Shown here one piece after another: positions 1 to 20,802 of a stretch of 53,882 bases of DNA. The DNA is from Alphaproteobacteria bacterium MarineAlpha9_Bin1 (GTDB lineage: Bacteria; Pseudomonadota; Alphaproteobacteria; TMED109): NCBI GenBank assembly GCA_002937675.1, contig PTKJ01000001.1, forward strand, positions 1-53,882. Reading direction: 5' to 3'. A model generated the notes under the pieces. It made no database searches and had not been told where the DNA came from. It was given only the letters and a program-made list of their open reading frames with translations. Position numbers and translations under genes: made by a program. The first letter of the stretch is position 1, and every line of letters starts with the position of its first letter.

Positions 1-1386
1 AAATTTTCTAATGGAGAAAAAGTATTAGCAGAAGATGTAATATACTCATGGAAATTATTAAAAGAGAAGGGAAGACCACATACTAGGTCATACTATTCCT
101 TGGTAAAAAAAGCATATTCACTGGGAAATCATTTAGTCCGGTTTGAATTTTCACAAAAAAGCAATTATGAAATGCCTTTAATAATTGGACTATTACCTAT
201 TCTTTCTAAGTCCTACTGGAAAGATAAAAATTTCAATAAGACAATCTTGGAGCCTATAGTCAGCTCTGGTCCTTATAAAATAAAAAAAATAGAGGCTGGT
301 AGGCTTATTATATATGAGAAGGATGTAAATTGGTGGCGAAAAAATAGTAAGGATAGTTCAGGCAGATATAATTTTCAATTTATAAGATATGATTTTTATA
401 GAGATGCAAATATTGCCTTAGAAGCATTCCTGTCAGGTGAATATGATATACATATTGAAAATGATTCGGTTAGATGGAAAACAAATTTGGTTAATAATAG
501 TCAAATTATAACCAAAACATATCCAAAAAAATCTCCCTCGGGAATAGAAGCTATTATTTTTAATTCTAGAAGAACACCTTTCGACGATATAAACGTGAGA
601 AAAGCTGTTTCTCTATTATTTCCTTATGACTTCATAAATAAAATTCTATTTCATAATTTACTTTCTAGAACCTATGGGCCGTGGGACAACAGTAATCTTC
701 AAGCAACTGAACAACCTAATCCTACTTCCTTCAGTATAATTTCTAAATATAAAGATCAAATTAGTCTCGAAGCATTAAAAATAATTAATATCAATAAACC
801 TCTAAATAATAGAGCCTTAGTGAAAAAAGCCTTAAATCTTTTAAATGAATCCGGGTGGAAATTAGAAAACAACAAAATGGTAAGCAAAAAGAATAAAAAA
901 AAATTAACGTTCTCAGTTATTACAAACCAGGCAAGAATGGAAAAATTACTGCTTGTATGGGCGCAACAATTAGAAAAAATAGGAGTTGACTTAAGAGTTC
1001 GTGTTACGGATAGCTCTCAATTTCAATACAGGCTACAAAGTTTTGATTTTGATTCAATTGTTTTTAAATATTACATGTCTCTTTCACCAGGAAATGAGCA
1101 ATACATATACTGGGGTAATTGGGCAGCAAGTCAAAGCGGGTCACGTAATTATGCAGGAATAAATCATCCAGCAATAGATGAAAGTATTAATGTGATCGTA
1201 AATTCTAAAAACAGGGATAAGCTTATAGAAGCAACACAAACACTTGACAGACTTTTGAGGGCAGGAAAATGGATGCTTCCATTATTTCACGATCCAGTTC
1301 ATAGAATCGCTTTTCAAAAAGATATAAAAATTCCTTCATCAATGCCTTTATATGGTTTTAATCCATGGGTATCTTGGCGTCAGTAA
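1..1386 (+). CDS. ABC transporter periplasmic substrate-binding protein, family 5 (peptide/YejA-like); the 5' end lies outside the window
   Basis: Frame 1 is open from nt 1 (KFSNGEKVLAEDVIYSWKLLKEKG...) and runs into the 100..1386 ORF. The FxxGxxxxAxDVxxSW block and overall layout are typical of SBP_bac_5 proteins. Confidence 0.7.
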   Translation, partial: KFSNGEKVLAEDVIYSWKLLKEKGRPHTRSYYSLVKKAYSLGNHLVRFEFSQKSNYEMPLIIGLLPILSKSYWKDKNFNKTILEPIVSSGPYKIKKIEAGRLIIYEKDVNWWRKNSKDSSGRYNFQFIRYDFYRDANIALEAFLSGEYDIHIENDSVRWKTNLVNNSQIITKTYPKKSPSGIEAIIFNSRRTPFDDINVRKAVSLLFPYDFINKILFHNLLSRTYGPWDNSNLQATEQPNPTSFSIISKYKDQISLEALKIININKPLNNRALVKKALNLLNESGWKLENNKMVSKKNKKKLTFSVITNQARMEKLLLVWAQQLEKIGVDLRVRVTDSSQFQYRLQSFDFDSIVFKYYMSLSPGNEQYIYWGNWAASQSGSRNYAGINHPAIDESINVIVNSKNRDKLIEATQTLDRLLRAGKWMLPLFHDPVHRIAFQKDIKIPSSMPLYGFNPWVSWRQ

Positions 1387-1452: not shown

Positions 1453-2463
1453 TTGACTTACAAAATAGACATTATAGGAAAATCAACCATAACAGTGGAT
1501 GATGGTGATTGCATATTAGAATCTGCACTTTCTCAAAAAGTGGATTTTCCACATGGTTGCAAATCTGGGAATTGTGGGGCATGCAAATCTAAATTAGTCT
1601 CTGGAGATATTTATATGATGCCATATTCAGAATTTGCACTAGAAGACTCTGAGAGAAAAAAAAAATTAATTCTAGCTTGTCGTGCTATACCTCAGACAGA
1701 TTGTAGTATTAAGATAGTTAACGAAAATAAAGAAAAAACTATTAAACAAAGCATAAAAGAATTAAAATATAAAGTTTCAAAAATAAACAAAGTAACAACA
1801 GATATAATTACTATAGAATTAGAAAATATTTCTGATAAAAAATTTAAGTTTTTAGCTGGACAATATGCAGAATTAAAATTTAGCAACTTGGATTCCAGAC
1901 AATTTTCTATGGCAAATTGTCCCTCAGAAGATAAATTAGAATTTCATATTAAAATACTGGGTGAGGGACTAGTAAGTGATTATGTTTCTAAAGAATTAAG
2001 TATAGAAGAAAAAGTTTTAATAACCGGTCCCTTCGGAAACTCTTATTTAAGAGAAAACCACAAGGGCCCAATATTATGTGTAGCAGGAGGAACCGGATTA
2101 GCACCTATTCTCTCTATAGCACTTTCTTATCAAGAGAAAAAAATGAAACAACCAGCCTATATATACGTAGGAGCTAAAACAGAAAATGATTTTTACTACC
2201 TGGATCAATTTATTAAAATAGCAAAGAATAATTCAAAATTTAAATTTTTTCCAATTATTTCGGAACAAAAAAATACTAGTAATTTTAGAACTGGACTAGT
2301 TACAGATGTTATAATAGAAGACATAGAAGACTTTGATGGATTTAAAGCATATTTAGCTGGACCTCCCCCAATGGTTGAAGCAGCAGAAAAGTTTTTTCCC
2401 AATCTTGGGCTTAATATAAATGATATTCATGCGGATGCTTTTTACAATAAATATGAGAATTAG
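1453..2463 (+). CDS. Oxygenase reductase: N-terminal plant-type 2Fe-2S ferredoxin fused to an FAD/NAD(P)H ferredoxin-reductase module (BenC/MMOR-type order)
   Basis: Cys cluster CKSGNCGACKSKL...LACR, flavin motif RQFSMAN, and NAD-binding GGTGLAP. TTG start with AGGAA upstream. Confidence 0.85.
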   Translation: MTYKIDIIGKSTITVDDGDCILESALSQKVDFPHGCKSGNCGACKSKLVSGDIYMMPYSEFALEDSERKKKLILACRAIPQTDCSIKIVNENKEKTIKQSIKELKYKVSKINKVTTDIITIELENISDKKFKFLAGQYAELKFSNLDSRQFSMANCPSEDKLEFHIKILGEGLVSDYVSKELSIEEKVLITGPFGNSYLRENHKGPILCVAGGTGLAPILSIALSYQEKKMKQPAYIYVGAKTENDFYYLDQFIKIAKNNSKFKFFPIISEQKNTSNFRTGLVTDVIIEDIEDFDGFKAYLAGPPPMVEAAEKFFPNLGLNINDIHADAFYNKYEN

Positions 2464-2469
2464 ATAAAA

Positions 2470-3414
2470 ATGGGTAAAGGATTATTAGAGAATAGAATTG
2501 CTATAGTATCAGGAGGAGCTAGAGGAATAGGAAAAGCAATTGCTTTTAGTCTAGCTCAACAAGGATGCAATATAGTCATTATAGATCCAGGATTTTCCAT
2601 AGAAGGTGAAGAAACTAATGAAAATAATTTAGTTCAAGAGACCGCAGAGACAATATCTAAGAAATACAATGTAAAAGTTTTAGGATATTCAAGTGATATT
2701 TCAGACTATGAAGTAGTAAAAAACATCTGTGATGAAGTAAAAAGTAGCTTTGGAAAAATAGATATTATAGTTAATAATGCTGCCATTTTAAGAGATAGTT
2801 TCATATTTAAATTAGATCAACACAGTTGGAGAAAGGTAATCGATACTAATCTTTCTGGTTCTTTCAATCTTACTTCATGTTCTAGCAAGATTATTAGAGA
2901 GCAAACTAAAAATGACTCTAGTTATTCTGATGGAAGAATTTTAAATATTATTTCCACAGCGGGAATATGGGGCAACTATGGACAAGCTGCCTATGCTTCT
3001 GCAAAGGCAGGATTAATGGCGCTCACGAGAGTTACTGCTCTAGATTTACAGAGGGCTGGCATTACTTGCAATGCAATTGCTCCATTCGCTTCTACAAGAG
3101 TTACAGAATCTATTAACCCACAAAATGAGGAACAAAAAAACTACAAATCTTCTGCTTTAAAAATTAAAGCACACTACGTAGGAGAATTGGCGTCAGCACT
3201 AGCTAGCAATAATGGTAAGAACATAACCGGGCAAGTATTTGGAGTAAGAGGAAAAGAAGTCTTTATTTTCAATAATGCAAATCCAGTGTATACTCATATA
3301 CGTAATTCGAATAATATAGAGGACCTAATAAAAGAGATTACAAATAATTTTACTAGACATTCTAGCCCACTTAAAACTGATTTAGAGGTGTTTTCTTCTG
3401 ATCCCATATTGTAA
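2470..3414 (+). CDS. Short-chain dehydrogenase/reductase, MFE-2-type (3R)-hydroxyacyl-CoA dehydrogenase-like
   Basis: VSGGARGIGKA glycine motif, NNAAILRDSF, GNYGQAAYASAKAG (YxxxK), and CNAIAPFASTRVTE. These blocks parallel the dehydrogenase domain of multifunctional enzyme 2 as I recall it. Confidence 0.75.
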   Translation: MGKGLLENRIAIVSGGARGIGKAIAFSLAQQGCNIVIIDPGFSIEGEETNENNLVQETAETISKKYNVKVLGYSSDISDYEVVKNICDEVKSSFGKIDIIVNNAAILRDSFIFKLDQHSWRKVIDTNLSGSFNLTSCSSKIIREQTKNDSSYSDGRILNIISTAGIWGNYGQAAYASAKAGLMALTRVTALDLQRAGITCNAIAPFASTRVTESINPQNEEQKNYKSSALKIKAHYVGELASALASNNGKNITGQVFGVRGKEVFIFNNANPVYTHIRNSNNIEDLIKEITNNFTRHSSPLKTDLEVFSSDPIL

Positions 3415-3431
3415 AATAAAAGGATTGTTAA

Positions 3432-4139
3432 ATGAGCAATGATTTTATTCCCCCTAAAGTTGAGACTTGTGAAGAACTAGATAATCATCCTGCTGAATTT
3501 AAAGAGGCCATCATAAAGTTAGTAAGAAGCCATGCCGTCAATGAACTTTACGGCGCTAGAGTGTTTGATGAACCAGCAATTTCTCTTGCTCCTACCCCTT
3601 ATGCTAAATGGCTTACTTGCAGAGTAGCTATGGAGGAGTATGGTCATCACGTAAGATTTAAAGAACTAGGAGAAAAACTAAATATACCTTATGAACAAAT
3701 GACCCCAGAGGGTAAAAACCCATTATCAATATTTGAATTTCCCTTAAAGACATGGGAAGAGTTTTGTGTCATTAAACTTTTAGCAGATCTAGCAGAAATA
3801 TTACAGGTTGAAGATTTATTAGAATGCACCTTTCTACCGTTAAAAAATGTAGCGAAAATGACAATGCCTGAAGAAAAGTTTCACGCAAAGTTTGGAGAAG
3901 ATTTTACCACAGAAATTATTAAAACCGAAAAAGGTAAAAAAGAAATTCAGGATGCTATAAACCACTATTTTCCTATGCTTCCAGCTTTTTTTGGTCGCCC
4001 TAACTCTAAAAACAATGCTATTTATAGGAAGTGGGGAATAAAAAAAAGAAAAAACGAAGAAATGTTAGAGGATTATTTAAATATTACACATAAACTAGTA
4101 GTAGAAAAACTGTCGCTGGAGTTACCTAAAATTCATTAA
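3432..4139 (+). CDS. Ferritin-like di-iron oxygenase subunit, PaaA-like (phenylacetyl-CoA epoxidase catalytic-subunit family), short form
   Basis: Two ExxH motifs (MEEYGHH and PEEKFHAKFG). Blocks SHAVNELYGA and IQDAINHYFPMLPAFFG parallel PaaA QHAHSE, DEAGH, KEESFHQRQG and LQDAINRFWWP. Confidence 0.65.
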   Translation: MSNDFIPPKVETCEELDNHPAEFKEAIIKLVRSHAVNELYGARVFDEPAISLAPTPYAKWLTCRVAMEEYGHHVRFKELGEKLNIPYEQMTPEGKNPLSIFEFPLKTWEEFCVIKLLADLAEILQVEDLLECTFLPLKNVAKMTMPEEKFHAKFGEDFTTEIIKTEKGKKEIQDAINHYFPMLPAFFGRPNSKNNAIYRKWGIKKRKNEEMLEDYLNITHKLVVEKLSLELPKIH

Positions 4140-4182
4140 TGTATGTGAAATATATTTCATAATAAAATAAGAAGTTATAAAT

Positions 4183-5226
4183 ATGGAAAACAATAATACA
4201 ACTAATAATTTTAAAAATAATTTTTATAACGATATTAAGCAATTACACCTAGCACCATTATGGGAAGTTTTGTCGAATCTTGTAACCACAAGCCCAAAGA
4301 CAAAAGCAGTTCCACACCTATGGAAATGGGAAAATATAAAAAAGCATGTCCTTACATCCGGAGAGGTAATATCAGCTGAAGAAGCTGAAAGGAGAGTACT
4401 CATTCTTGAAAACCCTGGAATGAAAGGAGAAAGCAAAATAACTGATACCCTTTATGCAGGACTGCAATTAATTCTTCCTGGAGAAATAGCTCCCAGCCAT
4501 CGACATACGCAATCGGCTTTGAGATTTATTATAGATGGGAATGGAGCATATACAACAGTAGATGGGGAAAAAACAACAATGCTTCCTGGAGATTTTATAA
4601 TTACACCTTCTTGGACATGGCATGATCATGGTAATGAATCTGATGAGCCTATGATATGGCTTGATGGACTAGATATACCTATAATTCAGCAATTTACTTC
4701 TAGTTTTACAGAAAGACTAGGGCAAAAAACTCAAATTATAAATAAACCAGAAGGAGATTCTTTAGCACGTTTTGGATCAGGATTACTTCCTGTTAATAAT
4801 ATTTCATTAAACAATAAAGTATCCCCTGTGTTTTCATACCCCTACAGTCGGACGCGTGAAGCTTTAGAAAAAATGAAGAATAGAGATAAATGGGATGAAT
4901 CTCATGGAATAAGATTAAAATATACTAATCCATTAAATGGTGGACACGCAATACCGACAATGGCAACTTTTATGCAATTACTTCCTAAATCTTTTAGTGG
5001 AAAATATAGCAGAAGCACAGATGGAACAATTTATTGTGTGATAGAAGGATTCGGAGAAACAGTGATTGGAGAAGAAAAATATAACTGGAGTAAAGGAGAT
5101 GTCTTTGTTGTTCCAGGTTGGTTTAAATTCAAACATAATACACAAGAAGAAGCCGTTCTGTTTTCGTACTCAGATAGGCCGGTTCAAGAAATGTTAGGTC
5201 TTTTTAGAGAAGAAGTTATGGAATAG
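4183..5226 (+). CDS. Gentisate 1,2-dioxygenase family bicupin
   Basis: 347 aa. Cupin 1 has PSHRHTQSALRFIIDGNGAYTTVDGEK...WHDHGN, and the second cupin has GDVFVVPGW. Both are typical of gentisate/1-hydroxy-2-naphthoate dioxygenases. Confidence 0.8.
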   Translation: MENNNTTNNFKNNFYNDIKQLHLAPLWEVLSNLVTTSPKTKAVPHLWKWENIKKHVLTSGEVISAEEAERRVLILENPGMKGESKITDTLYAGLQLILPGEIAPSHRHTQSALRFIIDGNGAYTTVDGEKTTMLPGDFIITPSWTWHDHGNESDEPMIWLDGLDIPIIQQFTSSFTERLGQKTQIINKPEGDSLARFGSGLLPVNNISLNNKVSPVFSYPYSRTREALEKMKNRDKWDESHGIRLKYTNPLNGGHAIPTMATFMQLLPKSFSGKYSRSTDGTIYCVIEGFGETVIGEEKYNWSKGDVFVVPGWFKFKHNTQEEAVLFSYSDRPVQEMLGLFREEVME

Positions 5227-5242
5227 GTTAACCTTAATTTCA

Positions 5243-5791
5243 ATGAATGGATCTACAGAAAATATTATTAATAAATTTAACAATTCAATTTTAGATATAA
5301 ATTGGTTTTCTAATATTGGAGAATTTAGTGAACAGAATACTCTAAAAGATGTAAACAATTATCTATGTTCTATAAATAGAGTTGCTACATTAAAAATAAT
5401 TTCTAGTTGGGATGATGCTTCTATAATAATAAATAGCCCAGAATTTGACAAAAATCTCTGGAAAGAGGAAGAAAACGAGAAAAAGTTACTTTATTTAGAT
5501 ATTATTAAAAACATTTCAAAAGAAGAATTAAGTAAATATTTATCTATTATAACCAAAACATCTTATGAAATTATTAATAATACTTTAATTGAGATAGCAA
5601 AAAAAAATAAGATCAGAGATCAATATTTTGTTAAAGTGGCTGGAGGAGCAGCAGGCTTAGCATGTCACCAAAAAACCCTAGCTTTGATATCTGAAGCAGG
5701 ACAAACTCACATGTTCCATACTAAATTTACACTATTCACATTGGGACATTGGCCACTCATGATAAGTAGGGATAAAATAAGTATTTTTTGA
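5243..5791 (+). CDS. Hypothetical protein (no recognisable motif)
   Basis: 182-codon ORF on the same strand, 16 nt after the dioxygenase and 28 nt before the thioesterase. No signal peptide. Confidence 0.5.
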   Translation: MNGSTENIINKFNNSILDINWFSNIGEFSEQNTLKDVNNYLCSINRVATLKIISSWDDASIIINSPEFDKNLWKEEENEKKLLYLDIIKNISKEELSKYLSIITKTSYEIINNTLIEIAKKNKIRDQYFVKVAGGAAGLACHQKTLALISEAGQTHMFHTKFTLFTLGHWPLMISRDKISIF

Positions 5792-5819
5792 TATTATATA
5801 AAAGGAATTACTACAAATT

Positions 5820-6257
5820 ATGACCTTAAAAAAAAATATATATAAAATAACAGTTAATTGGGGGGATTGTGATCCAGCAGGAATAGTATTCTACCCAAAT
5901 TTTTATAAATGGATGGATGAAGCTCACTGGGACTACTTTGATCAGATAGGTCAATCAATTATAAAACTTAAAAAACAATATAAAATTATAGGTTTGCCAC
6001 TACTGCAAACCAGCGGTATCTACTATAAACCTTGCAAACAGGGTGATAATTTGGAATTAGAAACTAGATTAATAGAGCTAAAAAAATCCAGCCTTAGACT
6101 TCAATATATTATAACTAATAAAGGACATATTGCATCTATCGGATATGAAGCAAGAATATGGGCTAAGAAAAAAGATACTAATATTTCTTCTCAGACCATA
6201 CCGTTCAGAGTTAAGAATGAATTACTAAAATACATCAAAGATGAAATAATATTATGA
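5820..6257 (+). CDS. Hotdog-fold acyl-CoA thioesterase, 4-hydroxybenzoyl-CoA thioesterase/YbgC family
   Basis: N-terminal VNWGDCDPAGIVFYPNFYKWMDEA matches the DxDxxGxVxxxxY signature. About 145 aa. Confidence 0.8.
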   Translation: MTLKKNIYKITVNWGDCDPAGIVFYPNFYKWMDEAHWDYFDQIGQSIIKLKKQYKIIGLPLLQTSGIYYKPCKQGDNLELETRLIELKKSSLRLQYIITNKGHIASIGYEARIWAKKKDTNISSQTIPFRVKNELLKYIKDEIIL

Positions 6258-7495
6258 AATCAAATATCGGAATAAACAAAAATAGACTCATAAAAAGTAT
6301 CGAGGAAATGGCCCAAATTGGCGCTACTGCCAAAGGGGGTGTTAACCGACAGGCTTTAACTGATTTAGATAAAGTATCAAGAGATTTATTCATAAAATGG
6401 TGCAAAAACGAAAACTTAAAAATTACCATAGATAAAATGGGAAATATATTTGCTAGGAGACAAGGTAAAAACAATAATCTTCCTCCAATCTTAAGCGGTA
6501 GCCATTTAGACACCCAACCGACTGGTGGTAAATATGACGGGGCTTTAGGAGTTTTGTCTGCTTTGGAGGTTATACGAAGTTTAAATGACATAAAATATAT
6601 CACCGAAGCTCCTTTAGAAATCGTTGTATGGACTAATGAAGAAGGCTGTCGTTTTCCACCTGCTATGACTGGCTCTGCCGTTTTTTCAGGCCAGTATAAC
6701 TTAAATGATGCATTATTAATTGAAGATTTAGATGGTAAAACTCTTGGAGAAGAACTTTCTAGAATAAAATATAATGGTAAAACAAATTGTAGACCTAGAA
6801 AAATAGGTGCTTTCATAGAAACACATATAGAACAAGGACCAATTCTAGAAATTGCAGATAAATCAATTGGTGTAGTTGTAGGCTCTCAAGCACAAAAATG
6901 GTATGAAGTTAACATTGTTGGCATGGAAGCACATGCGGGTCCTACTCCTATGAACAAAAGAAAAGATGCTCTCGTTGGAGCTTCAAATATTGTTTTGCTA
7001 GTCAACTCCATAGGTAATAAATTTCAGCCAGGTGGATGTTCTACCTGTGGAGTTTTAAATATCAAATCACCTTCAAGAAACGTAATACCTGGTGAATGTT
7101 TTCTAACTATAGATTTTAGACACCCTAGTGATCAAAGACTTAAAGAGATGGATAAAAATTTGAGATTAGAAATAAAAAAAATTGCAAATAATTATAATTT
7201 GAAAATTTCCATTAAACAGATTTTGGAGCTCAAATCGAAATCTTTTAATAAAAAAGTTAGAAAAACTATTGAAAAAGTCTCTTCAAATTTAGAGCTACCA
7301 CATCAAGAAATTATTTCTGGTGCAGGACATGATGCTGTAAACATAAATGATATTGCCCCTACTGGAATGATTTTTATTCCTTGTGTAGATGGAATAAGTC
7401 ATAATGAAACAGAAAAAGCTTTAAAAAAAGATATATCAGCAGGCGCGCAGGTATTGCTACACTCTATGATTGAGCTTGCAGATAATACTAAATGA
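6254..7495 (+). CDS. M20 Zn-dependent amidohydrolase (allantoate amidohydrolase / N-carbamoyl-L-amino-acid hydrolase / beta-ureidopropionase subfamily)
   Basis: GSHLDTQPTGGKYDGALGVLSALEV, WTNEEG, and GAGHDA. ATGA overlap with the upstream thioesterase. Confidence 0.85.
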   Translation: MKSNIGINKNRLIKSIEEMAQIGATAKGGVNRQALTDLDKVSRDLFIKWCKNENLKITIDKMGNIFARRQGKNNNLPPILSGSHLDTQPTGGKYDGALGVLSALEVIRSLNDIKYITEAPLEIVVWTNEEGCRFPPAMTGSAVFSGQYNLNDALLIEDLDGKTLGEELSRIKYNGKTNCRPRKIGAFIETHIEQGPILEIADKSIGVVVGSQAQKWYEVNIVGMEAHAGPTPMNKRKDALVGASNIVLLVNSIGNKFQPGGCSTCGVLNIKSPSRNVIPGECFLTIDFRHPSDQRLKEMDKNLRLEIKKIANNYNLKISIKQILELKSKSFNKKVRKTIEKVSSNLELPHQEIISGAGHDAVNINDIAPTGMIFIPCVDGISHNETEKALKKDISAGAQVLLHSMIELADNTK

Positions 7496-7526: not shown

Positions 7527-7874
7527 ATGACATTTAACTGGACTGAAGCAAAAGTAAAAAAACTAGAAAAATTATGGACTAAAAACACACCAGCAAGGGA
7601 TATCGCAAAACAACTAGGTAAGGGAATTAGTAGAAATGCTATAATAGGTAAAGCAAACAGACTTGGACTCACTAGAACAGCAGAAAAAAAAGAAAAAAAA
7701 AATATTATAGTAAATGAAGACGTACTTCTCGATACTAGGGGTTGTCGCTGGCCATTCGGTGATCCTGGCAACGAAGATTTTCACTTTTGTGGAGATATAC
7801 AAGTACCAGGAAAACCATATTGCTTAGAACACTGTATGATTGCTTACAGAAAAAAAGATTCAAAGAGAGGGTAA
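7527..7874 (+). CDS. gcrA: Cell-cycle regulator GcrA (short, 115 aa)
   Basis: N-terminal WTEAKVKKLEKLW...ARDIAKQLG..ISRNAIIGKANRLGL. C-terminal CRWPFGDP...FHFCG...PYCLEHC. Confidence 0.85.
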   Translation: MTFNWTEAKVKKLEKLWTKNTPARDIAKQLGKGISRNAIIGKANRLGLTRTAEKKEKKNIIVNEDVLLDTRGCRWPFGDPGNEDFHFCGDIQVPGKPYCLEHCMIAYRKKDSKRG

Positions 7875-8430: not shown

Positions 8431-9273
8431 ATGTCACTAAATAAAACAGATCTTAATGACGCAAAGAATTTTTATGAAGAAAACGGGGTTGCCGTTCTAA
8501 GAAATGTTCTTGATGAAAAATACCTAGAACCTATGCGGAAAGCTATAGATAACGTATTGCAAAACCCTGGTTCTGCTTCTATTGAATATACACCTCCTAA
8601 TGAAAAAGGAAGGTATTATGGGGACTTTTTTATTTGGAGAACTAATGAAACATTTAAAAATTTTGCCTTCAAATCAGTTTTACCCGAAATTGCAGCAAAT
8701 ATTTCAGAAAGTAAAAAAATAAATTTTTTTTATGACCAGTTGCTTGTCAAAGAACCAAGTACTAAAGAGCTAACTCCATGGCATCATGACCTTCCTTATT
8801 GGCCTATAAGAGGACAAAAAATTATTTCCATTTGGGTACCTTTTGATGATGTAACAAAGGAAACAGGAGCAGTCGAATATATAAAAGGTTCACATAAGTG
8901 GAACAAAATGTTTGCTCCCGCTTCTTTTGGCAAAAAAACTAAATTTTCTGATTTATACGATAAAATGGGATTAGAAAAAATACCTGATATTGACTCCAAC
9001 AAAGGTAATTATGACATTATTTCTTGGGATGTAAAACCAGGAGATATAATCCTTCATCATCCTTTAGTTTTACATTCGTCATCTGGAAATTCATCTTCTG
9101 CAAAGAGAAGAAGAGGGTTGGCTCTCCGATATGTCGGAGAAGATGTAGTTTGGGATGGTAGGGAAGGAACATTTATGGAAAATAAAAAGATCCAAAAACT
9201 TTTACCTCCAATAAATTTAAATGATGGTGACATTCTAACAAGTGAGTTGTTTCCCGTTATCTGGCAACAGTAG
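8431..9273 (+). CDS. Fe(II)/2-oxoglutarate dioxygenase, phytanoyl-CoA dioxygenase (PhyH) family
   Basis: WHHDLPYWP (HxD) with distal His in ILHHPLVLHSS and Arg in RRGLALRY. 280 aa. Confidence 0.75.
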   Translation: MSLNKTDLNDAKNFYEENGVAVLRNVLDEKYLEPMRKAIDNVLQNPGSASIEYTPPNEKGRYYGDFFIWRTNETFKNFAFKSVLPEIAANISESKKINFFYDQLLVKEPSTKELTPWHHDLPYWPIRGQKIISIWVPFDDVTKETGAVEYIKGSHKWNKMFAPASFGKKTKFSDLYDKMGLEKIPDIDSNKGNYDIISWDVKPGDIILHHPLVLHSSSGNSSSAKRRRGLALRYVGEDVVWDGREGTFMENKKIQKLLPPINLNDGDILTSELFPVIWQQ

Positions 9274-9282
9274 AACCGACGG

Positions 9283-10056
9283 ATGCTAAATTATATTTGC
9301 AGCACAAGTGAAGATAAAACACCTTTAATTTTAATACATGGGATAGCAGGTACCTCAAAAGTATTCGAACCACAAATTAATGAGTTTGGTAAACAATACT
9401 ACGTCATCTCCATAGATTTGCCAGGATATGGGAGGTCTTCAATGCTAGAAAATACCAGTATTTCTAGTTATGCTAATGCTGTTTATGATTTTTTGATTTC
9501 TCATGCATTAGAATCTCCTATTTTGTTAGGGCATTCATTAGGTGGAATGATTGTTCAAAAAATTATCACTCAACACCCATCGTATGCAAAAGCATCCATA
9601 TTAGTTGGAACTTCATCTAAATTTGGCGGCAATGATGTATTATGGCAAAAACACTTTATAAATTCTCGCTTAAGACCATTAAATGAAGGAAAAACTTTAG
9701 CAGAAATTTCTGAATCATTGATAAATAATATAGTTGGCCCCAAGACTGAAAAAAAAATTATTAAGTTTGCATCTAACATTATGTCTTCTATATCTGATAA
9801 GTCCTACAGAGTAGCTATAAACTCTTTAATAGGTTTTGATCTTAAAAATAAATTATCAAGTATATCTATTCCGACATTATTAATTGCTGGAGAAAATGAC
9901 AACCAAGCTCCTGCCAAAATAATGCGAAGAATGTCTGAGAATATAAAACTAAGCCAGTTTGTAGTAATTAATGAGTGTGGACATTTAATAAACATTGAAA
10001 AGCCTGTTGATTTTAACAATGCTCTAAAAGATTTTTTTATAAAATATAATCTTTAA
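9283..10056 (+). CDS. Alpha/beta-fold hydrolase (enol-lactonase / MhpC / deformylase-like)
   Basis: LILIHGIAGT oxyanion region, nucleophile elbow GHSLGG, and C-terminal ECGHL. Confidence 0.85.
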   Translation: MLNYICSTSEDKTPLILIHGIAGTSKVFEPQINEFGKQYYVISIDLPGYGRSSMLENTSISSYANAVYDFLISHALESPILLGHSLGGMIVQKIITQHPSYAKASILVGTSSKFGGNDVLWQKHFINSRLRPLNEGKTLAEISESLINNIVGPKTEKKIIKFASNIMSSISDKSYRVAINSLIGFDLKNKLSSISIPTLLIAGENDNQAPAKIMRRMSENIKLSQFVVINECGHLINIEKPVDFNNALKDFFIKYNL

Positions 10057-10073
10057 AAAAGTAAGGAAAAAAA

Positions 10074-11336
10074 ATGCAATCTAAAGACCTTAAATTTGAT
10101 GAACCCATGTTTGAAAGTAAGGCTTTTCAGCTTACAGATGAAGAAGAGAAAATTTGTAAAAAAGCTCGGGAGTTAGGAAGTGAAAAATTCGCCCCAAGAG
10201 CTTATCAATATGATGACGAAGCAAAATTTCCAACAGAAAATTACAAAGATCTGCATAAAGAAGGGTTTCTTGGAATATGCATACCCAAAGAAAATGGGGG
10301 ATTGGGTGCAAGCTTTAGATGTTATACATTAGCAGCAGCGGAAATAGGAAGATACTGTGGATCTACAGCTCTAACCTGGAACATGCATGTATGTTCAACT
10401 CTTTGGACCGGATCTCTTACAGATGATTTAAATATGCCAAATAACATATACCAAGAGCACCGTAAACAGAGAACTATCCACTACAATCGCATAATAAATG
10501 ATGGAGCTATTTACTCTCAACCTTTCTCTGAGAGCGGAAGTGCGGCAGCAGGAACAACTCCCTTTTCTACTATCGCTGAACCTGTAAAAAATGGATGGAG
10601 AATAAATGGGAAAAAGATATTTGCATCCTTAGCTGGACATGCTTCTTATTACGGTATTCTTTGTACTGAAAAATTAGCTGACAAAGAGCCAAGTCAAAAA
10701 AACACCCTTTATCTTGCTATTCCTGCTAATCAAGAGGGAGTAAGTGTTATAGGAGATTGGAATCCTCTTGGGATGAGAGGTACAGTATCAAGAACTCTTA
10801 TTTTCAAAGATGTATTTGTTCCTAACGAATCCGCTTTAATGCCTAGAGGTATGTATTTTGAAGCAGCAAGAAGATGGCCACACATGTTTTTAACGTTATC
10901 ACCTACTTATGTGGGTTTAGCTCAAGCTGCATTAGATTTTACGGTCAAATATCTCAGAGGAGAACTACCAGGAACCCCTCCCATAAAAAGAAGAATGTAT
11001 CCTACCAAACAAATAACTGTGGCTGAAATGCAAATACAATTAGAATCTTTAAAAGCATTATGGTTTCAAAGTATTTCAGAAGCCTGTGTTGACCCTAGTC
11101 CAGCACAAATAAAAAGAGCTTATGCCACACAGTTTTCAGTAATGGAAGGAGCACATAAAATCGCTCAATTAGCTATCAGAACATGTGGAGGGCAAGCAAT
11201 GCTCAAATCATTGTCTTTAGAGAGGATTCTCAGAGATAGCCGTTGTGGCTCCTTAATGCTCCCATGGACTGCAGAAATATGTCTAGATAGATTAGGCAAA
11301 GTCTCTCTTTACAACCCAGGAGAAACTGATCAGTAA
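10074..11336 (+). CDS. Acyl-CoA dehydrogenase-fold flavoprotein (atypical; may be a dehydrogenase or an ACAD-fold oxygenase)
   Basis: 420 aa with ACAD-like blocks (KEGFLGICIPKENGGLG, YSQPFSESGS, WNPLGMRGT, ERILRD). The usual C-terminal YEG Glu position reads LPW. Confidence 0.75.
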   Translation: MQSKDLKFDEPMFESKAFQLTDEEEKICKKARELGSEKFAPRAYQYDDEAKFPTENYKDLHKEGFLGICIPKENGGLGASFRCYTLAAAEIGRYCGSTALTWNMHVCSTLWTGSLTDDLNMPNNIYQEHRKQRTIHYNRIINDGAIYSQPFSESGSAAAGTTPFSTIAEPVKNGWRINGKKIFASLAGHASYYGILCTEKLADKEPSQKNTLYLAIPANQEGVSVIGDWNPLGMRGTVSRTLIFKDVFVPNESALMPRGMYFEAARRWPHMFLTLSPTYVGLAQAALDFTVKYLRGELPGTPPIKRRMYPTKQITVAEMQIQLESLKALWFQSISEACVDPSPAQIKRAYATQFSVMEGAHKIAQLAIRTCGGQAMLKSLSLERILRDSRCGSLMLPWTAEICLDRLGKVSLYNPGETDQ

Positions 11337-11343
11337 AAGTCAG

Positions 11344-12906
11344 ATGAAAAATAATTTATATAAATACATAGAAGAACATTCTATTAATAACCCAGAAAAA
11401 ATAGCGATAAATTTTGAACAGACTACTATAAATTATCTTCAATTATTTAATAGAATTGAATTACTAGCCTCATATATATCTATAAATTTAAAATGTAAAA
11501 AGGGAGACAGAATTGCAATTCTATCTTTAAATAGAATAGAATTTATTACTCTTTTTTATGCTTGTTCTAAATTAGGAACCATTTTAGTTCCCATTAATTG
11601 GAGGCTAACAAAATATGAAATAACAAATATTCTTAAAAATGTGACTGCAAAATTATTATTTACTGAATTAGAATTTAAAAACACTATAAGTGAACTGTAT
11701 ATTAACATTCCTAAACTAAGAATAATTGGGATAGATTTTATTCCCCAAACAAAATTATCTTTAAAAAATAGCATAAAAATTAATAAAAATTCAGAAGTCA
11801 AAAAAATTATTAGTGATTTTAATCACCCCATACTTATTGTTCACACGTCAGGTACGACAGGACAAGCAAAAGGAGCAGTTCTATCACAAAAAGCTGTTTA
11901 TTATAATATATTGAACAGCATACATATGCACAAATTGGAAAAATCAGATCATATTCTAACAGTAATTCCCTTATTCCATGTAGGTGGCTTAAATATTCAA
12001 ACCATTCCTGCTATACACATTGGTGCTACAGTTACTTTACATAGAAAGTTTGATTTGAAAGAAACATTTAAAGCATTAAAATTATTAAAACCTACATTTA
12101 CAGTATTCGTACCAACGATCATGGAAGCAATTCTAAATTTTAAAGATTGGAGTCCTCTAAAATTTTCTTCATTAAAAGCAATTACTACTGGATCTACAAT
12201 AATTGCTCCCGATTTAATAAAAACTTATGAAGAAAACAATATTCCTATAATCCAAGTTTATGGTTCTACTGAAACTGGACCAATTGCCGTCTGCCAGAAT
12301 TTATCCGAGAAAAGGAAACCATACGGAAACTCGGGTACACCAGCATTATACACGAAAGCGGAAATTTTTAATAATAAAAATGAAATGGTAAAAAAAAATA
12401 TTATTGGTGAGATTGGTATCCGTGGACCTAATTTATTTTCTTACTACTGGAAAGATAAAAAAGAAACAAAAAAAGCTTTTATTAATGGCTGGTTTATGAC
12501 AGGGGATTACGCAAAAAAAAATGAAAAGAACCAATTTTTTATAGCAGGACGAAAAGAGAATATAATTATATCAGGAGGAGAAAATATTTACTCTGCAGAA
12601 TTAGAACAAGTGTTTTTAAAAGAAAAAAATATAGAAGAAGCTGCAGTTATTGGAATCCCAGATAAAAAATGGCAAGAAATACCTATAGCTTTTGTGAAAA
12701 CAAAAAAACAATTTAAATTGAATGAATATCTAATTAATAATAACTTAAAAAAAAAACTAGCAAAATATAAGATACCTAGAATATTAATTAAAATAGATGA
12801 GATTCCTAAAAATGCCTTAGGAAAAATTGATTATAAATTGCTAAGAGACTATTATAACGACTTAAAATCAAGAAAGAAATTAAAGAAAACAAGTAATGTT
12901 ATTTAG
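11344..12906 (+). CDS. AMP-dependent acyl/aryl-CoA ligase
   Basis: AMP-binding motif HTSGTTGQAKGAVLS, YGSTETG, and GWFMTGD. C-terminal lysine in PKNALGKIDYK. Confidence 0.85.
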   Translation: MKNNLYKYIEEHSINNPEKIAINFEQTTINYLQLFNRIELLASYISINLKCKKGDRIAILSLNRIEFITLFYACSKLGTILVPINWRLTKYEITNILKNVTAKLLFTELEFKNTISELYINIPKLRIIGIDFIPQTKLSLKNSIKINKNSEVKKIISDFNHPILIVHTSGTTGQAKGAVLSQKAVYYNILNSIHMHKLEKSDHILTVIPLFHVGGLNIQTIPAIHIGATVTLHRKFDLKETFKALKLLKPTFTVFVPTIMEAILNFKDWSPLKFSSLKAITTGSTIIAPDLIKTYEENNIPIIQVYGSTETGPIAVCQNLSEKRKPYGNSGTPALYTKAEIFNNKNEMVKKNIIGEIGIRGPNLFSYYWKDKKETKKAFINGWFMTGDYAKKNEKNQFFIAGRKENIIISGGENIYSAELEQVFLKEKNIEEAAVIGIPDKKWQEIPIAFVKTKKQFKLNEYLINNNLKKKLAKYKIPRILIKIDEIPKNALGKIDYKLLRDYYNDLKSRKKLKKTSNVI

Positions 12907-13909: not shown

Positions 13910-13931
13910 TAAAAAATAAAATTCTAAAATA

Positions 13932-14501
13932 ATGTTAAATTTAATCTTTAAAATTTCCAATAAACTTCTATTAACTTTTTGTGTATTGGCTCTTACTATT
14001 TTAGTTATTATCACTGTGGTAGATGTGTTTGGCAGATATATTCTTGGATTACCATTGCCTGGAACATCTGAGATCACAGAAATACTTTTAGCTATTTTGG
14101 TATATATAGGGCTGCCCTACATATGCAGAGATGAAGGACACGTCACTGTTTCTATAATTTCTAATAGCCTAAAATATTCTCTTGCTCGGATACATAGCGT
14201 AATAATAAATGCAATTTCTTGTATTATTTTGCTTATTATTTCAAAACAATTATACGACCATGGTATTAATTTATATTCTTATAATGATATAACTACGTTT
14301 TTGGAAATTCCAAAAGCTCCGATAGCATTTTTGATGTCATTTCTTACATTATTAGCTTCAATAATGACTTTATTAAACTGCTACAACTACTTAATAGATA
14401 AAAGGTCTGTTAAAACTCAGTCTCCTGAAGATAGGATGTACGCTGCATATAAAAGACCAGGGATAATAGAATCATCTCTAGATGAAAAAGACCAGGAATA
14501 A
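13932..14501 (+). CDS. TRAP transporter small permease (DctQ family)
   Basis: 189-aa protein with four predicted TM segments, lying between the DctP and DctM genes. Confidence 0.75.
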   Translation: MLNLIFKISNKLLLTFCVLALTILVIITVVDVFGRYILGLPLPGTSEITEILLAILVYIGLPYICRDEGHVTVSIISNSLKYSLARIHSVIINAISCIILLIISKQLYDHGINLYSYNDITTFLEIPKAPIAFLMSFLTLLASIMTLLNCYNYLIDKRSVKTQSPEDRMYAAYKRPGIIESSLDEKDQE

Positions 14502-14535
14502 ATCATGAAAATAATAATAAAAGTGTTATTTTAAA

Positions 14536-20801: not shown

Positions 20802-20802
20802 A

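What the first reader, a model, noticed from the sequence alone, without database searches (positions are those of the whole stretch)
1453..7495. Seven-gene operon joining a PaaA-like di-iron oxygenase and reductase to a gentisate-type dioxygenase, a hotdog thioesterase, an MFE-2-like dehydrogenase and an M20 amidohydrolase
Seven same-strand ORFs are separated by only 6-43 nt, plus one ATGA overlap at 6254/6257, so they read as one transcription unit. As far as I know, characterised routes to gentisate use flavoprotein hydroxylases, Rieske salicylate 5-hydroxylase, or the Streptomyces salicylyl-CoA/gentisyl-CoA route. PaaA/BoxB-type di-iron enzymes are known only as aryl-CoA epoxidases. Placing a PaaA-like subunit and a thioesterase beside a para-diol cleavage enzyme suggests ring oxygenation at the CoA-thioester level, then thioester hydrolysis and ring fission. 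I do not recognise that combination as described. The window contains no maleylpyruvate isomerase or hydrolase and no cognate regulator. The amidohydrolase hints that the substrate carries an amide or carbamoyl group.
Basis: partly seen in the sequence, partly recalled or inferred. Interest (0 to 1): 0.75.

Follow-up and report, generated by a model that had tools for sequence, protein, structure and literature searches.

The report
Uncharacterised di-iron aryl-CoA route to gentisate
A marine alphaproteobacterium carries a conserved gene set (found in at least 568 bacterial species, never characterised) that most likely oxygenates an aromatic acid as its CoA thioester with a PaaA-like di-iron enzyme, releases gentisate and cleaves the ring; the neighbouring amidohydrolase is not part of it.

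Summary
The seven ORFs, their 6-43 nt gaps and the ATGA overlap are real. Tight spacing is the norm in this 91%-coding window, so spacing alone does not define an operon.

Comparative genomics shows a conserved five-gene core:
- a BenC/MmoC-type reductase;
- an MFE-2-like (3R)-hydroxyacyl-CoA-dehydrogenase-type SDR;
- a 235-aa PaaA-like di-iron protein with all six PaaA metal ligands;
- a bona fide gentisate 1,2-dioxygenase;
- a 182-aa protein with no Pfam, NCBIfam or PDB match and an unmatched predicted fold.

In 53 species-level loci with adequate flanks, the PaaA-like gene is accompanied by the SDR (98%), the unknown protein (91%), the reductase (91%), the dioxygenase (85%) and a CoA ligase (85%). 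MarR, a 4HBT thioesterase, a TRAP transporter and an FAA-family hydrolase are each frequent. The M20 amidase occurs in 4% of loci, all close relatives of the window.

The amide or carbamoyl hint is not supported. The substrate is unknown. I favour benzoyl-CoA, through epoxidation, water addition and dehydrogenation to gentisyl-CoA. No paper in the searchable library describes this module. I rate it a new variant of the PaaA/BoxB hybrid-pathway theme, interest about 0.65.

The parts
1453..2463 (+). NAD(P)H:oxygenase reductase. It has an N-terminal plant-type [2Fe-2S] ferredoxin domain followed by FAD and NAD domains, the BenC/MmoC/T4moF domain order. This is not the PaaE order.
   Evidence: Pfam Fer2, FAD_binding_6 and NAD_binding_1. 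Best NCBIfam matches are BenC and MmoC, below cut-off. PDB matches 5ogx, 1krh and 4wqm. Motifs C36x4C41x2C44, RQFS149 and GGTG212. Present next to the PaaA-like gene in 91% of 53 loci.
2470..3414 (+). 314-aa SDR of the (3R)-hydroxyacyl-CoA dehydrogenase (MFE-2/PRK07791) type. Its motifs suggest NAD preference and it has a conserved C-terminal extension. Proposed role: dehydrogenation (re-aromatisation) of a ring-hydroxylated dihydro-aroyl-CoA.
   Evidence: Pfam adh_short. Best PDB match is 2et6, Candida MFE-2 (3R)-hydroxyacyl-CoA dehydrogenase, E=2e-57, against about 1e-38 for FabG. Motifs G15xxxGxG, D39, NNA102, S162 and Y175xxxK179. Immediately upstream of the PaaA-like gene in 98% of loci. 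Also upstream in a sister lineage whose PaaA-like protein is 49% identical to the window's (SDR 39% identical over its full length).
3432..4139 (+). 235-aa PaaA-like di-iron oxygenase subunit, the proposed aryl-CoA ring oxygenase.
   Evidence: PF05138 at 82.6 bits, above the 28.5 cut-off. TIGR02156 PaaA at 81.7 bits, far below its 280 cut-off. E. coli PaaA 3pvr E=1.5e-14, with ligands E38, E69, H72, D119, E148 and H151 aligned to the PaaA ligands. These ligands are invariant in 16 homologues. AF2 pLDDT 93.6; best fold match is PaaA (4ii4_A: TM 0.87, rmsd 1.8 A, 26% identity), ahead of PaaC (13% identity) and BoxB. The family is tight, about 65-90% identity across at least 568 species genomes.
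4183..5226 (+). Gentisate 1,2-dioxygenase (bicupin).
   Evidence: TIGR02272 equivalog at 529 bits, above the 442 cut-off. E. coli O157 gentisate dioxygenase 2d40 E=3e-117. Metal-ligand motifs H106-x-H108 and WHDHG146-150 are conserved. Lies between the PaaA-like gene and the unknown gene in 85% of loci.
5243..5791 (+). 182-aa conserved protein of unknown family. Proposed role: partner subunit of the oxygenase, or the enzyme that opens or isomerises the epoxide.
   Evidence: No Pfam or NCBIfam hit for it or for any of 25 orthologues. No PDB sequence hit. AF2 model pLDDT 88.5, pTM 0.86, mostly helical with a small sheet, and no Foldseek PDB match at E<=0.001. Not homologous to the PaaA-like family (hhalign probability 0.2%). 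Present in 91% of loci. Directly follows a PaaA-like gene whose product is 42% identical to the window's, in a distant sister lineage (hhalign probability 99.9%). In loci without the dioxygenase it abuts or overlaps the PaaA-like ORF.
5820..6257 (+). Hotdog (4HBT class) acyl-CoA thioesterase, the proposed gentisyl-CoA thioesterase.
   Evidence: Pfam 4HBT_2 and 4HBT. Best PDB matches are 4-hydroxybenzoyl-CoA thioesterases 5wh9 (3e-20) and 1bvq. Motif D16-C-D18-P-A-G. 54% identical to the thioesterase in the sister marine clade's cluster. A 4HBT thioesterase lies within 10 kb in 43% of loci.
6254..7495 (+). M20 hydantoinase/carbamoylase-family amidase. It is adjacent and overlaps the thioesterase stop codon (ATGA), but it is probably not part of the conserved system.
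   Evidence: NF006769 at 583 bits, above the 452 cut-off, and TIGR01879. Found next to the module only in L006-L008, the window's closest relatives, which is 2 of 53 scored loci. In the sister marine clade an aryl-type AMP-forming CoA ligase sits between the unknown gene and the thioesterase, and nothing homologous follows the thioesterase.

Best explanation
The region encodes a conserved, uncharacterised 'hybrid' aerobic pathway that handles an aromatic acid as its CoA thioester and funnels it to gentisate.

Shown:
- a catalytic-type PaaA homologue with an intact di-iron site;
- a [2Fe-2S]/FAD/NAD reductase of the kind that feeds di-iron and Rieske oxygenases;
- an SDR closest to (3R)-hydroxyacyl-CoA dehydrogenases;
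- a true gentisate 1,2-dioxygenase;
- a 4-hydroxybenzoyl-CoA-thioesterase-like hotdog protein;
- a new-family 182-aa protein that always travels with them.

Inferred mechanism:
1. The reductase passes electrons from NAD(P)H to the PaaA-like protein. That protein probably works with the 182-aa protein as partner.
2. The PaaA-like protein oxygenates the ring of an aroyl-CoA.
3. A non-aromatic hydroxylated intermediate is dehydrogenated by the SDR at the ring carbon beta to the thioester, giving gentisyl-CoA.
4. The thioesterase releases gentisate.
5. The dioxygenase opens the ring to maleylpyruvate.

Favoured specific version (about one in three): the substrate is benzoyl-CoA. A BoxB-like 2,3-epoxide is opened by conjugate addition of water to a 2,5-dihydrodiol-CoA. 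The SDR then oxidises this to gentisyl-CoA.

In relatives the cluster also supplies the CoA ligase, a MarR regulator, a TRAP importer and an FAA-family hydrolase. The window's lineage has lost these from the cluster. The M20 amidase is a lineage-specific neighbour, not a component.
For: - Family and motif evidence for each protein.
- The PaaA-like model superposes on PaaA, the catalytic subunit, at TM 0.87 and 1.8 A. It fits PaaC and BoxB less well.
- Synteny: the five-gene core recurs in Desertibaculum, Stellaceae, Ferrovibrio, Arenibaculum, marine Rhodospirillaceae-like MAGs and gammaproteobacterial Arenicellales.
- In 53 species-level loci: SDR 98%, unknown protein 91%, reductase 91%, dioxygenase 85%, CoA ligase 85% (62% ADP-forming alpha-type, 23% AMP-forming), MarR 55%, thioesterase 43%, TRAP 26%, FAA hydrolase 26%.
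- The AMP-forming ligase of the sister marine clade is closest to 3-hydroxybenzoate-CoA ligase and the benzoate-CoA ligase family.
- The cluster's TRAP binding protein is closest (E about 1e-73) to PDB entries 5im2, 5i5p and 5iga, then 7nr2. From memory these are aromatic-acid-binding TRAP proteins.
- The SDR, PaaA-like and unknown trio persists in sister lineages whose PaaA-like proteins are only 42-49% identical to the window's. The SDR is therefore integral, which argues for a non-aromatic intermediate needing dehydrogenation.
Against: - There are no biochemical or genetic data for any member. Every reaction step is inferred.
- The window's own operon has no CoA ligase, regulator or maleylpyruvate-processing gene.
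- 15% of loci lack the dioxygenase nearby and 57% lack a nearby thioesterase.
- Known PaaA needs PaaB and PaaC. Here no such partners exist, and the proposed partner is unrelated to PaaC.
- A simple monooxygenation of a hydroxybenzoyl-CoA would not need an SDR, and conversely the SDR's substrate is unknown.
- The ligase and TRAP similarities are below family cut-offs or rest on my memory of PDB ligands.
Confidence: 0.6

Rival explanations
1. The pathway logic is the same, but the oxygenase is a direct monohydroxylase of a hydroxybenzoyl-CoA. Candidates are salicylyl-CoA 5-hydroxylation, 3-hydroxybenzoyl-CoA 6-hydroxylation, or ipso (1,2) epoxidation of 4-hydroxybenzoyl-CoA with an NIH shift of the acyl group. 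This would be a di-iron analogue of SdgC or PhgA. The SDR would have an auxiliary role, for example reducing a quinone or epoxide by-product.
For: The known CoA-dependent routes to gentisate use ligase, hydroxylase, thioesterase and gentisate dioxygenase: PhgABC (PMC11848710, PMC7862547) and SdgC (PMC13215587). The ligase's best hit is a 3-hydroxybenzoate-CoA ligase. The thioesterase's best PDB hits are 4-hydroxybenzoyl-CoA thioesterases. PaaA's native ipso/ortho epoxidation chemistry (established knowledge) would give gentisyl-CoA from 4-hydroxybenzoyl-CoA after an acyl shift.
Against: It does not explain why a (3R)-hydroxyacyl-CoA-dehydrogenase-type SDR accompanies the PaaA-like gene in 98% of loci, and even in distant sisters. 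All ligase and thioesterase matches are below family cut-offs.
Confidence: 0.25
2. One reading: all seven genes, including the M20 amidase, form one pathway for an aromatic substrate carrying an amide or carbamoyl group. The amidase would liberate or process this group before or after ring oxygenation.
For: The ATGA overlap couples the amidase to the thioesterase. The adjacency is kept in L006-L008. Other clades carry different amidohydrolases beside the module: Peptidase_C26 in 16 loci, and penicillin amidase plus GH3 in 7-8 loci.
Against: The M20 gene is adjacent in only 2 of 53 scored loci. It belongs to the allantoate/N-carbamoyl-amino-acid hydrolase family, not to aroyl-amide hydrolases. 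Close spacing and overlaps are the norm in this genome, and GcrA follows at 31 nt. The three amidase types are unrelated and differently placed.
Confidence: 0.08
3. The PaaA-like, SDR, unknown and reductase set acts on a non-aromatic or otherwise unrelated acyl-CoA. One example is O2-dependent beta-hydroxylation or desaturation followed by dehydrogenation. Its frequent adjacency to gentisate dioxygenase would then reflect a shared regulon rather than consecutive steps.
For: 15% of loci have the trio without the dioxygenase, some with only SDR, PaaA-like, unknown and ligase. The SDR's closest relatives act on aliphatic (3R)-hydroxyacyl-CoAs.
Against: In 85% of loci the dioxygenase sits inside the set, between the PaaA-like and unknown genes. 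The ligase, thioesterase, TRAP and MarR neighbours are aromatic-acid types. The closest structural relatives of the oxygenase, PaaA and BoxB, are aryl-CoA ring epoxidases.
Confidence: 0.07

Closest known systems
PaaABC(D)E phenylacetyl-CoA 1,2-epoxidase (E. coli, Pseudomonas)
   Same: The catalytic subunit shares the fold and all six di-iron ligands with PaaA. The substrate class is inferred to be an aryl-CoA thioester. Electrons come from an NAD(P)H-dependent Fe-S flavoprotein.
   Different: The score is far below the PaaA equivalog cut-off (81.7 against 280 bits), with only about 26% identity. The protein is about 75 residues shorter. There are no PaaB, PaaC or PaaD genes. The reductase has the BenC/MmoC domain order, not PaaE's. 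Its obligatory companions are an SDR and a new-family protein. Downstream is gentisate cleavage, not oxepin-CoA hydrolysis (PaaG/PaaZ).
BoxAB benzoyl-CoA 2,3-epoxidase
   Same: A di-iron aryl-CoA ring oxygenase of the same superfamily. Benzoyl-CoA is my favoured substrate.
   Different: BoxB is about 475 aa and only remotely similar (E=0.005; TM normalised to BoxB length about 0.37). BoxA is a [4Fe-4S]/FAD protein. The Box route cleaves the ring non-oxygenolytically with BoxC. Here the ring would be re-aromatised and cut by a dioxygenase.
CoA-dependent routes to gentisate: SdgABCD (Streptomyces WA46, salicylyl-CoA 5-hydroxylase) and PhgABC (Brevibacillus laterosporus, 4-hydroxybenzoyl-CoA 1-hydroxylase with NIH shift)
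   Same: The overall logic is the same: ligase, hydroxylation on the CoA ester, gentisyl-CoA thioesterase, gentisate 1,2-dioxygenase (PMC11848710, PMC7862547, PMC13215587).
   Different: Those hydroxylases are single gene products that work in E. coli without a dedicated reductase (PMC11848710). From memory they are flavoproteins. Here the oxygenase is a PaaA-type di-iron protein with a separate reductase, an SDR and a new-family protein.
Gentisate 1,2-dioxygenase of E. coli O157:H7 (PDB 2d40) and the mhb/nag gentisate pathways
   Same: The cupin matches E. coli gentisate dioxygenase 2d40 at E=3e-117 (about 55% identity by my reading of the alignment) and passes the equivalog cut-off.
   Different: In the mhb and nag clusters gentisate is made from free 3-hydroxybenzoate or salicylate by flavoprotein or Rieske hydroxylases (established knowledge). 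No such hydroxylase is present here.

Membership tests
PaaA_PaaC ferritin-like di-iron family (PF05138), catalytic PaaA type | Score above the Pfam gathering threshold | tested here: met
   82.6 bits against a 28.5 cut-off
PaaA_PaaC ferritin-like di-iron family (PF05138), catalytic PaaA type | Six di-iron ligands (E, ExxH, D/E, ExxH) at the PaaA positions | tested here: met
   E38, E69, H72, D119, E148 and H151 align to the E. coli PaaA ligands. They are invariant in 16 homologues.
PaaA_PaaC ferritin-like di-iron family (PF05138), catalytic PaaA type | Fold superposes on PaaA better than on the non-catalytic PaaC | tested here: met
   PaaA gives TM 0.87, rmsd 1.8 A and 26% identity. PaaC gives TM 0.79-0.80 and 12-14% identity.
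1,2-phenylacetyl-CoA epoxidase PaaABCDE (the enzyme proper) | PaaA equivalog score (TIGR02156) | tested here: not met
   81.7 bits against a 280 cut-off
1,2-phenylacetyl-CoA epoxidase PaaABCDE (the enzyme proper) | Companion subunits PaaB, PaaC and PaaD, and a PaaE-type reductase | tested here: not met
   None are in the window cluster or in 80 related loci. The reductase is BenC/MmoC-type, and PaaE scores 106.7 against 420.8. The 182-aa partner is not PaaC-like.
1,2-phenylacetyl-CoA epoxidase PaaABCDE (the enzyme proper) | Epoxidation of phenylacetyl-CoA | not testable with these tools
   Needs an enzyme assay
Gentisate 1,2-dioxygenase (TIGR02272) | Equivalog score above cut-off | tested here: met
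   529.1 bits against 442.1. The rival 5-aminosalicylate dioxygenase model scores 277 against 650.
Gentisate 1,2-dioxygenase (TIGR02272) | N-terminal cupin His metal ligands (HxH ... H) | tested here: met
   H106-R-H108 and W-H147-D-H149-G are identical to E. coli gentisate dioxygenase 2d40 in the alignment.
Gentisate 1,2-dioxygenase (TIGR02272) | Activity on gentisate | not testable with these tools
   Needs an assay
MFE-2-type (3R)-hydroxyacyl-CoA dehydrogenase SDR | Classical SDR cofactor and catalytic motifs (TGxxxGxG, NNAG, S-YxxxK) | tested here: met
   G15xxxGxG, NNA102, S162 and Y175xxxK179. D39 at the predicted end of strand beta-2 suggests NAD preference.
MFE-2-type (3R)-hydroxyacyl-CoA dehydrogenase SDR | Closest characterised relatives are (3R)-hydroxyacyl-CoA dehydrogenases | tested here: met
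   2et6 at E=2e-57 against FabG at about 1e-38. Also 3oml, 1zbq and 1gz6. NCBIfam PRK07791 scores below cut-off, 192.7 against 373.
MFE-2-type (3R)-hydroxyacyl-CoA dehydrogenase SDR | Acts on a 3-hydroxyacyl-CoA | not testable with these tools
   Needs an assay
4HBT-class hotdog aryl-CoA thioesterase | 4HBT/4HBT_2 domain and an N-terminal catalytic Asp motif | tested here: met
   PF13279 at 44.7 bits against 25.5. D16-C-D18-P-A-G motif. Best PDB matches are 4-hydroxybenzoyl-CoA thioesterases.
CoA-dependent gentisate routes (Sdg/Phg type) | Aryl-CoA ligase, CoA-ester hydroxylase, gentisyl-CoA thioesterase and gentisate dioxygenase encoded together | tested here: inconclusive
   Across relatives a ligase (85%), thioesterase (43%) and dioxygenase (85%) accompany the oxygenase. 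The window's own cluster lacks the ligase.

The most novel reading that the evidence does not exclude
The module is a third kind of di-iron aryl-CoA oxygenase system. It turns benzoyl-CoA into gentisyl-CoA through beta-oxidation-like logic on a de-aromatised ring: epoxidation, conjugate water addition and epoxide opening by the new-fold 182-aa protein, then dehydrogenation by the (3R)-hydroxyacyl-CoA-dehydrogenase-type SDR. This would be an unrecognised aerobic benzoate-to-gentisate pathway, widespread in soil and ocean Alphaproteobacteria. It would supply an enzymatic basis for old reports (recalled from memory) of benzoate catabolism via benzoyl-CoA and gentisate.
Probability: 0.3. Interest if true: 0.8.

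Novelty: new variant of a known kind. Interest (0 to 1): 0.65.

Why it matters
Only two di-iron aryl-CoA oxygenases are characterised, PaaA and BoxB. Both lead to non-oxygenolytic ring opening. A PaaA-type enzyme that instead re-aromatises to a dihydroxy product and hands it to a classical ring-cleaving dioxygenase would be a new junction between the 'hybrid' CoA pathways and the classical gentisate pathway. It would also be a new way to make gentisate.

The module is highly conserved: the oxygenase is about 65-90% identical across orders. It occurs in at least 568 species-level genomes, including low-GC marine bacterioplankton. It could therefore matter for the turnover of aromatic dissolved organic matter.

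It also contains a protein family with no Pfam, NCBIfam or PDB match, and an SDR whose role implies unusual ring chemistry. Current annotation pipelines label the oxygenase as phenylacetyl-CoA epoxidase subunit PaaA or PaaI. That would mislead metabolic reconstructions.

Tried and rejected
- Spacing as operon evidence: rejected. 25 of 34 same-strand junctions in the window are <=45 nt.
- M20 amidase as a pathway member: rejected on conservation.
- The unknown protein as a degenerate PaaC-like partner: rejected, hhalign probability 0.2%.
- The unknown protein against Pfam, NCBIfam, PDB sequences and PDB folds: nothing. Word-indexed homologue searches returned only 2 and then 18 proteins.
- A cognate aryl-CoA ligase, MarR or FAA hydrolase elsewhere in the window: none found by tblastn or by Pfam scans of ORFs up to 40 kb. 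The ligase at 11344-12906 is only 26% identical to the cluster ligase of the sister clade. It belongs to a different cluster.
- Literature: ten full-text searches found no paper linking a PaaA-like di-iron protein to gentisate. Search terms included gentisyl-CoA, PaaA-like with gentisate, SAR11 with gentisate, benzoyl-CoA with gentisate, NIH shift, phgABC, PDB codes, and BoxB/PaaA with gentisate. The PhgABC primary paper and the TRAP structural paper are not held. PhgA sequences were not in the held supplements. The PDB-code search was a wasted query.
- Plasmid collection: no homologue.
- tRNA and Rfam scans of the window: nothing.

Full report
OBSERVATION

The seven + strand ORFs are present exactly as described: 1453-2463, 2470-3414, 3432-4139, 4183-5226, 5243-5791, 5820-6257 and 6254-7495. 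The gaps are 6, 17, 43, 16 and 28 nt. The ATGA stop/start overlap at 6254-6257 is in the sequence. The window is about 32% G+C with no compositional break over the region, so the cluster looks native.

Spacing, however, says little in this genome. With 91% coding density, 25 of 34 same-strand gene junctions in the window are <=45 nt, with a median of 19 nt. The next gene, the alphaproteobacterial cell-cycle regulator GcrA (7527-7874), follows the M20 gene after 31 nt. The promoter and terminator scans were no better than shuffled sequence. The case for a functional unit therefore has to come from conservation.

WHAT THE PROTEINS ARE

1. 1453-2463 is a [2Fe-2S]-FAD-NAD reductase with the BenC/MmoC/T4moF domain order. 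PaaE is a much weaker match. The Cys, RxFS and GGTG motifs are present.
2. 2470-3414 is a 314-aa classical SDR. Its best solved relative by a wide margin is the (3R)-hydroxyacyl-CoA dehydrogenase of yeast MFE-2 (2et6, E=2e-57, against about 1e-38 for FabG). It has the catalytic S162 and Y175xxxK179, and an Asp (D39) that suggests NAD preference.
3. 3432-4139 is a PaaA_PaaC family member at 82.6 bits (cut-off 28.5). It scores far below the PaaA equivalog cut-off, 81.7 against 280.
 - The alignment to E. coli PaaA places E38, E69, H72, D119, E148 and H151 on the six di-iron ligands.
 - These ligands are invariant in homologues.
 - A confident AF2 model (pLDDT 93.6) superposes best on the catalytic PaaA subunit (TM 0.87, 1.8 A, 26% identity). 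It fits an uncharacterised Sulfolobus protein (4mud), PaaC (13% identity) and BoxB less well.
4. 4183-5226 passes the gentisate 1,2-dioxygenase equivalog model, 529 against 442 bits. It matches the E. coli O157 enzyme at E=3e-117 with the His ligand motifs intact.
5. 5243-5791 (182 aa) has no Pfam, NCBIfam or PDB sequence match.
6. 5820-6257 is a 4HBT-class hotdog thioesterase. Its best solved relatives are 4-hydroxybenzoyl-CoA thioesterases.
7. 6254-7495 is an M20 amidase of the hydantoinase/carbamoylase (allantoate amidohydrolase-like) family.

The oxygenase is a catalytic-type di-iron protein. The cupin has its ligands. I found no assigned pathway.

COMPARATIVE GENOMICS

The PaaA-like protein belongs to a tight family. 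There were 2077 hits in the 90%-clustered database, and the best 120 are 68-99% identical. They are mostly labelled PaaA, PaaI or 'phenylacetic acid catabolic protein'. In the exhaustive 50%-clustered search only a handful of full-length sisters lie at 38-49% identity, before generic PaaA-like proteins at 25-30%.

A scan of one genome per species found at least 568 loci. Most are Alphaproteobacteria: Stellaceae, Ferrovibrio, Arenibaculum, Desertibaculum, Reyranellales, and marine Rhodospirillaceae-, Pelagibacterales- and 'MarineAlpha'-labelled MAGs. A few are Gammaproteobacteria (Arenicellales). The window's closest relatives are marine MAGs (L006-L008, 86-91% identity).

Gene calls on public contigs and my own ORF/BLAST synteny analysis of 85 loci show a recurrent order: reductase, SDR, PaaA-like, gentisate dioxygenase, unknown protein. 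Among 53 non-redundant loci with adequate flanks, the PaaA-like gene has the following within 10 kb:

| Neighbour | Share of loci |
|---|---|
| SDR | 98% |
| Unknown protein | 91% |
| Reductase | 91% |
| Gentisate dioxygenase | 85% |
| CoA ligase, total | 85% |
| - ADP-forming alpha-subunit-like protein | 62% |
| - AMP-forming ligase | 23% |
| Divergent MarR regulator | 55% |
| 4HBT thioesterase | 43% |
| TRAP transporter | 26% |
| FAA-family hydrolase | 26% |
| M20 amidase | 4% (only the window's nearest relatives) |

In the sister marine low-GC clade (L003-L005, L009-L016) the order is reductase, SDR, PaaA-like, dioxygenase, unknown, AMP-ligase, thioesterase. That ligase is closest to 3-hydroxybenzoate-CoA ligase HbdA and the benzoate-CoA ligase family, both below cut-off. 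Its thioesterase is 54% identical to the window's. The window lineage has therefore lost the ligase from the cluster and acquired the M20 gene after the thioesterase.

Some loci lack the dioxygenase (SDR, PaaA-like, unknown, ligase). There the unknown ORF abuts or overlaps the PaaA-like ORF. Two distant sisters whose PaaA-like proteins are 49% and 42% identical to the window's still keep their partners. One keeps the SDR upstream (39% identical over its full length, including the C-terminal extension). The other keeps the unknown protein downstream (hhalign probability 99.9%). The ancient unit is thus SDR, PaaA-like and unknown protein, plus the reductase, and it is usually wired to gentisate cleavage.

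THE UNKNOWN PROTEIN

- None of 25 orthologues hits Pfam.
- The family evolves fast: members are 20-54% identical to the window's protein, where the oxygenase keeps about 70%.
- It has few invariant polar residues (E76 and K161, plus Trp, Gly and Pro).
- An AF2 model is confident (pLDDT 88.5, pTM 0.86), but no PDB fold matches at E<=0.001.
- It is not a degenerate PaaA or PaaC.

I read it as either a structural or effector partner of the oxygenase, or the catalyst that opens or isomerises the primary oxygenation product. Neither role is shown.

MECHANISM

Shown: the protein families, the metal and catalytic motifs, and the conserved linkage.

Inferred: an aromatic acid is imported (TRAP in relatives) and activated to a CoA thioester (ligase in relatives). 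The reductase-fed PaaA-like di-iron protein then oxygenates the ring. PaaA and BoxB, the two closest characterised enzymes, are both aryl-CoA ring epoxidases (established knowledge).

The near-obligatory SDR of the (3R)-hydroxyacyl-CoA dehydrogenase type implies an intermediate that carries a hydroxyl on the ring carbon beta to the thioester and is not yet aromatic. Oxidising that hydroxyl and tautomerising would give an ortho-phenol. The thioesterase then frees gentisate, the dioxygenase makes maleylpyruvate, and an FAA-family hydrolase (in relatives) completes the route.

The most economical chemistry that needs every conserved part starts from benzoyl-CoA:
1. 2,3-epoxidation, as in BoxB.
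2. Conjugate addition of water with epoxide opening, giving a 2,5-dihydroxy-dihydrobenzoyl-CoA.
3. NAD+-dependent dehydrogenation to gentisyl-CoA.

I give the general scheme about 0.6 and this specific version about 0.3. The main rival is direct hydroxylation of a hydroxybenzoyl-CoA. That includes an attractive PaaA-style ipso-epoxidation of 4-hydroxybenzoyl-CoA with an acyl (NIH) shift. This rival leaves the SDR unexplained.

The TRAP binding protein of the cluster in relatives is closest (E about 1e-73) to PDB entries 5im2, 5i5p and 5iga, then 7nr2. I recall these as aromatic-acid-binding TRAP proteins, but I could not confirm that from held papers.

THE AMIDE HINT

The M20 gene is not conserved with the module. 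It belongs to the ureido/carbamoyl hydrolase branch. Other clades do carry unrelated amidohydrolases nearby: Peptidase_C26 in 16 loci, and penicillin amidase plus a GH3 amido-synthetase in 7-8 loci. A link to amide conjugates of aromatic acids therefore cannot be excluded, but the evidence is weak and heterogeneous.

COMPARISON WITH KNOWN SYSTEMS

The oxygenase is a member of the PaaA_PaaC superfamily of the catalytic type. It is not a phenylacetyl-CoA epoxidase: it fails the equivalog score, it lacks PaaB, PaaC and PaaD, and its reductase differs. It is also not BoxB.

The pathway logic matches the CoA-dependent gentisate routes Sdg and Phg (PMC13215587, PMC11848710, PMC7862547). Those hydroxylases, however, are single gene products that work in E. 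coli without a dedicated reductase (PMC11848710). Here there is a multi-component di-iron system plus an SDR.

Ten full-text searches found no description of this cluster. The library lacks most subscription-journal papers, so prior description elsewhere cannot be excluded.

VERDICT

This is a widespread, conserved and apparently uncharacterised variant of the di-iron aryl-CoA 'hybrid' strategy, coupled to the gentisate pathway, and it includes a protein family with no known relatives. Interest is 0.65. Novelty is 'new variant of a known kind'.

Noticed in passing
window 8431-15834 (+): A second tightly packed cluster lies just after GcrA. It contains a PhyH-family Fe/2OG dioxygenase (8431-9273), an alpha/beta hydrolase (9283-10056), an acyl-CoA-dehydrogenase-like protein with weak flavin-monooxygenase hits (10074-11336), an AMP-forming CoA ligase (11344-12906) and TRAP DctPQM (12896-15834). 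The DctP is closest to PDB 4p56, then 7nr2 and 5i5p. The whole arrangement is syntenic in L006 and L007. It might supply an aroyl-CoA to the ligase-less gentisate module, but that is speculation.
   Followed up: partly
window 7527-7874 (+): A short (115-aa) GcrA cell-cycle regulator sits 31 nt after the M20 amidase, between two catabolic clusters. The same placement occurs in L006 and L007. It is a useful internal control showing that spacing does not indicate co-function here.
   Followed up: partly
window 100-1386 (+), cut by the window start: A family-5 solute-binding protein (SBP_bac_5) with no adjacent permease genes lies 66 nt upstream of the reductase. It occupies the same position in all marine low-GC relatives (L003-L016, 59-75% identity). 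It may be the uptake component of this clade's version of the module.
   Followed up: partly
L068, L070, L075, L076, L080 (Stellaceae); L026, L033; L022, L043, L045, L055, L056, L067: There are variant architectures of the module. One is SDR, PaaA-like, unknown and ADP-type ligase, with no reductase or dioxygenase nearby. Another is reductase, PaaA-like and FAA hydrolase, with no SDR or unknown protein. A third is the full set minus the dioxygenase. These may be paralogous second copies or may serve a different end product.
   Followed up: partly
L002 12393-13787; L068 11890-13470 and 31 other loci: The commonest 'ligase' in the cluster is a 464-526-aa protein like the alpha subunit of ADP-forming acetyl-CoA synthetase (CoA_binding_2 plus Succ_CoA_lig). 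No ATP-grasp beta subunit is encoded beside it. Whether it activates the acid, works with a distant beta subunit, or cleaves the thioester with energy conservation is open.
   Followed up: no
16 loci (e.g. L068 7038-7823, L026 7649-8440); L002 1-3435 and 6-7 relatives: Different amidohydrolases recur next to the module in other clades. Soil Stellaceae-type loci have Peptidase_C26 (gamma-glutamyl hydrolase type) plus an alpha/beta hydrolase. The L002-type marine clade has penicillin amidase plus a GH3 amido-synthetase.
   Followed up: partly
window 15837-16877 (-), 18571-19251 (+), 37453-39297 (-): Three sizeable ORFs (346, 226 and 614 aa) have no Pfam match. The 614-aa ORF lies next to a tyrosine recombinase (Phage_integrase family; 36535-37449).
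   Followed up: no
window 19332-24583: Two sodium:solute symporters flank an esterase (BD-FAE/Abhydrolase_3, 21142-22032) and a PEP-mutase/isocitrate-lyase-family protein (22025-22903) whose ORFs overlap. This is a small unexplained catabolic unit.
   Followed up: no
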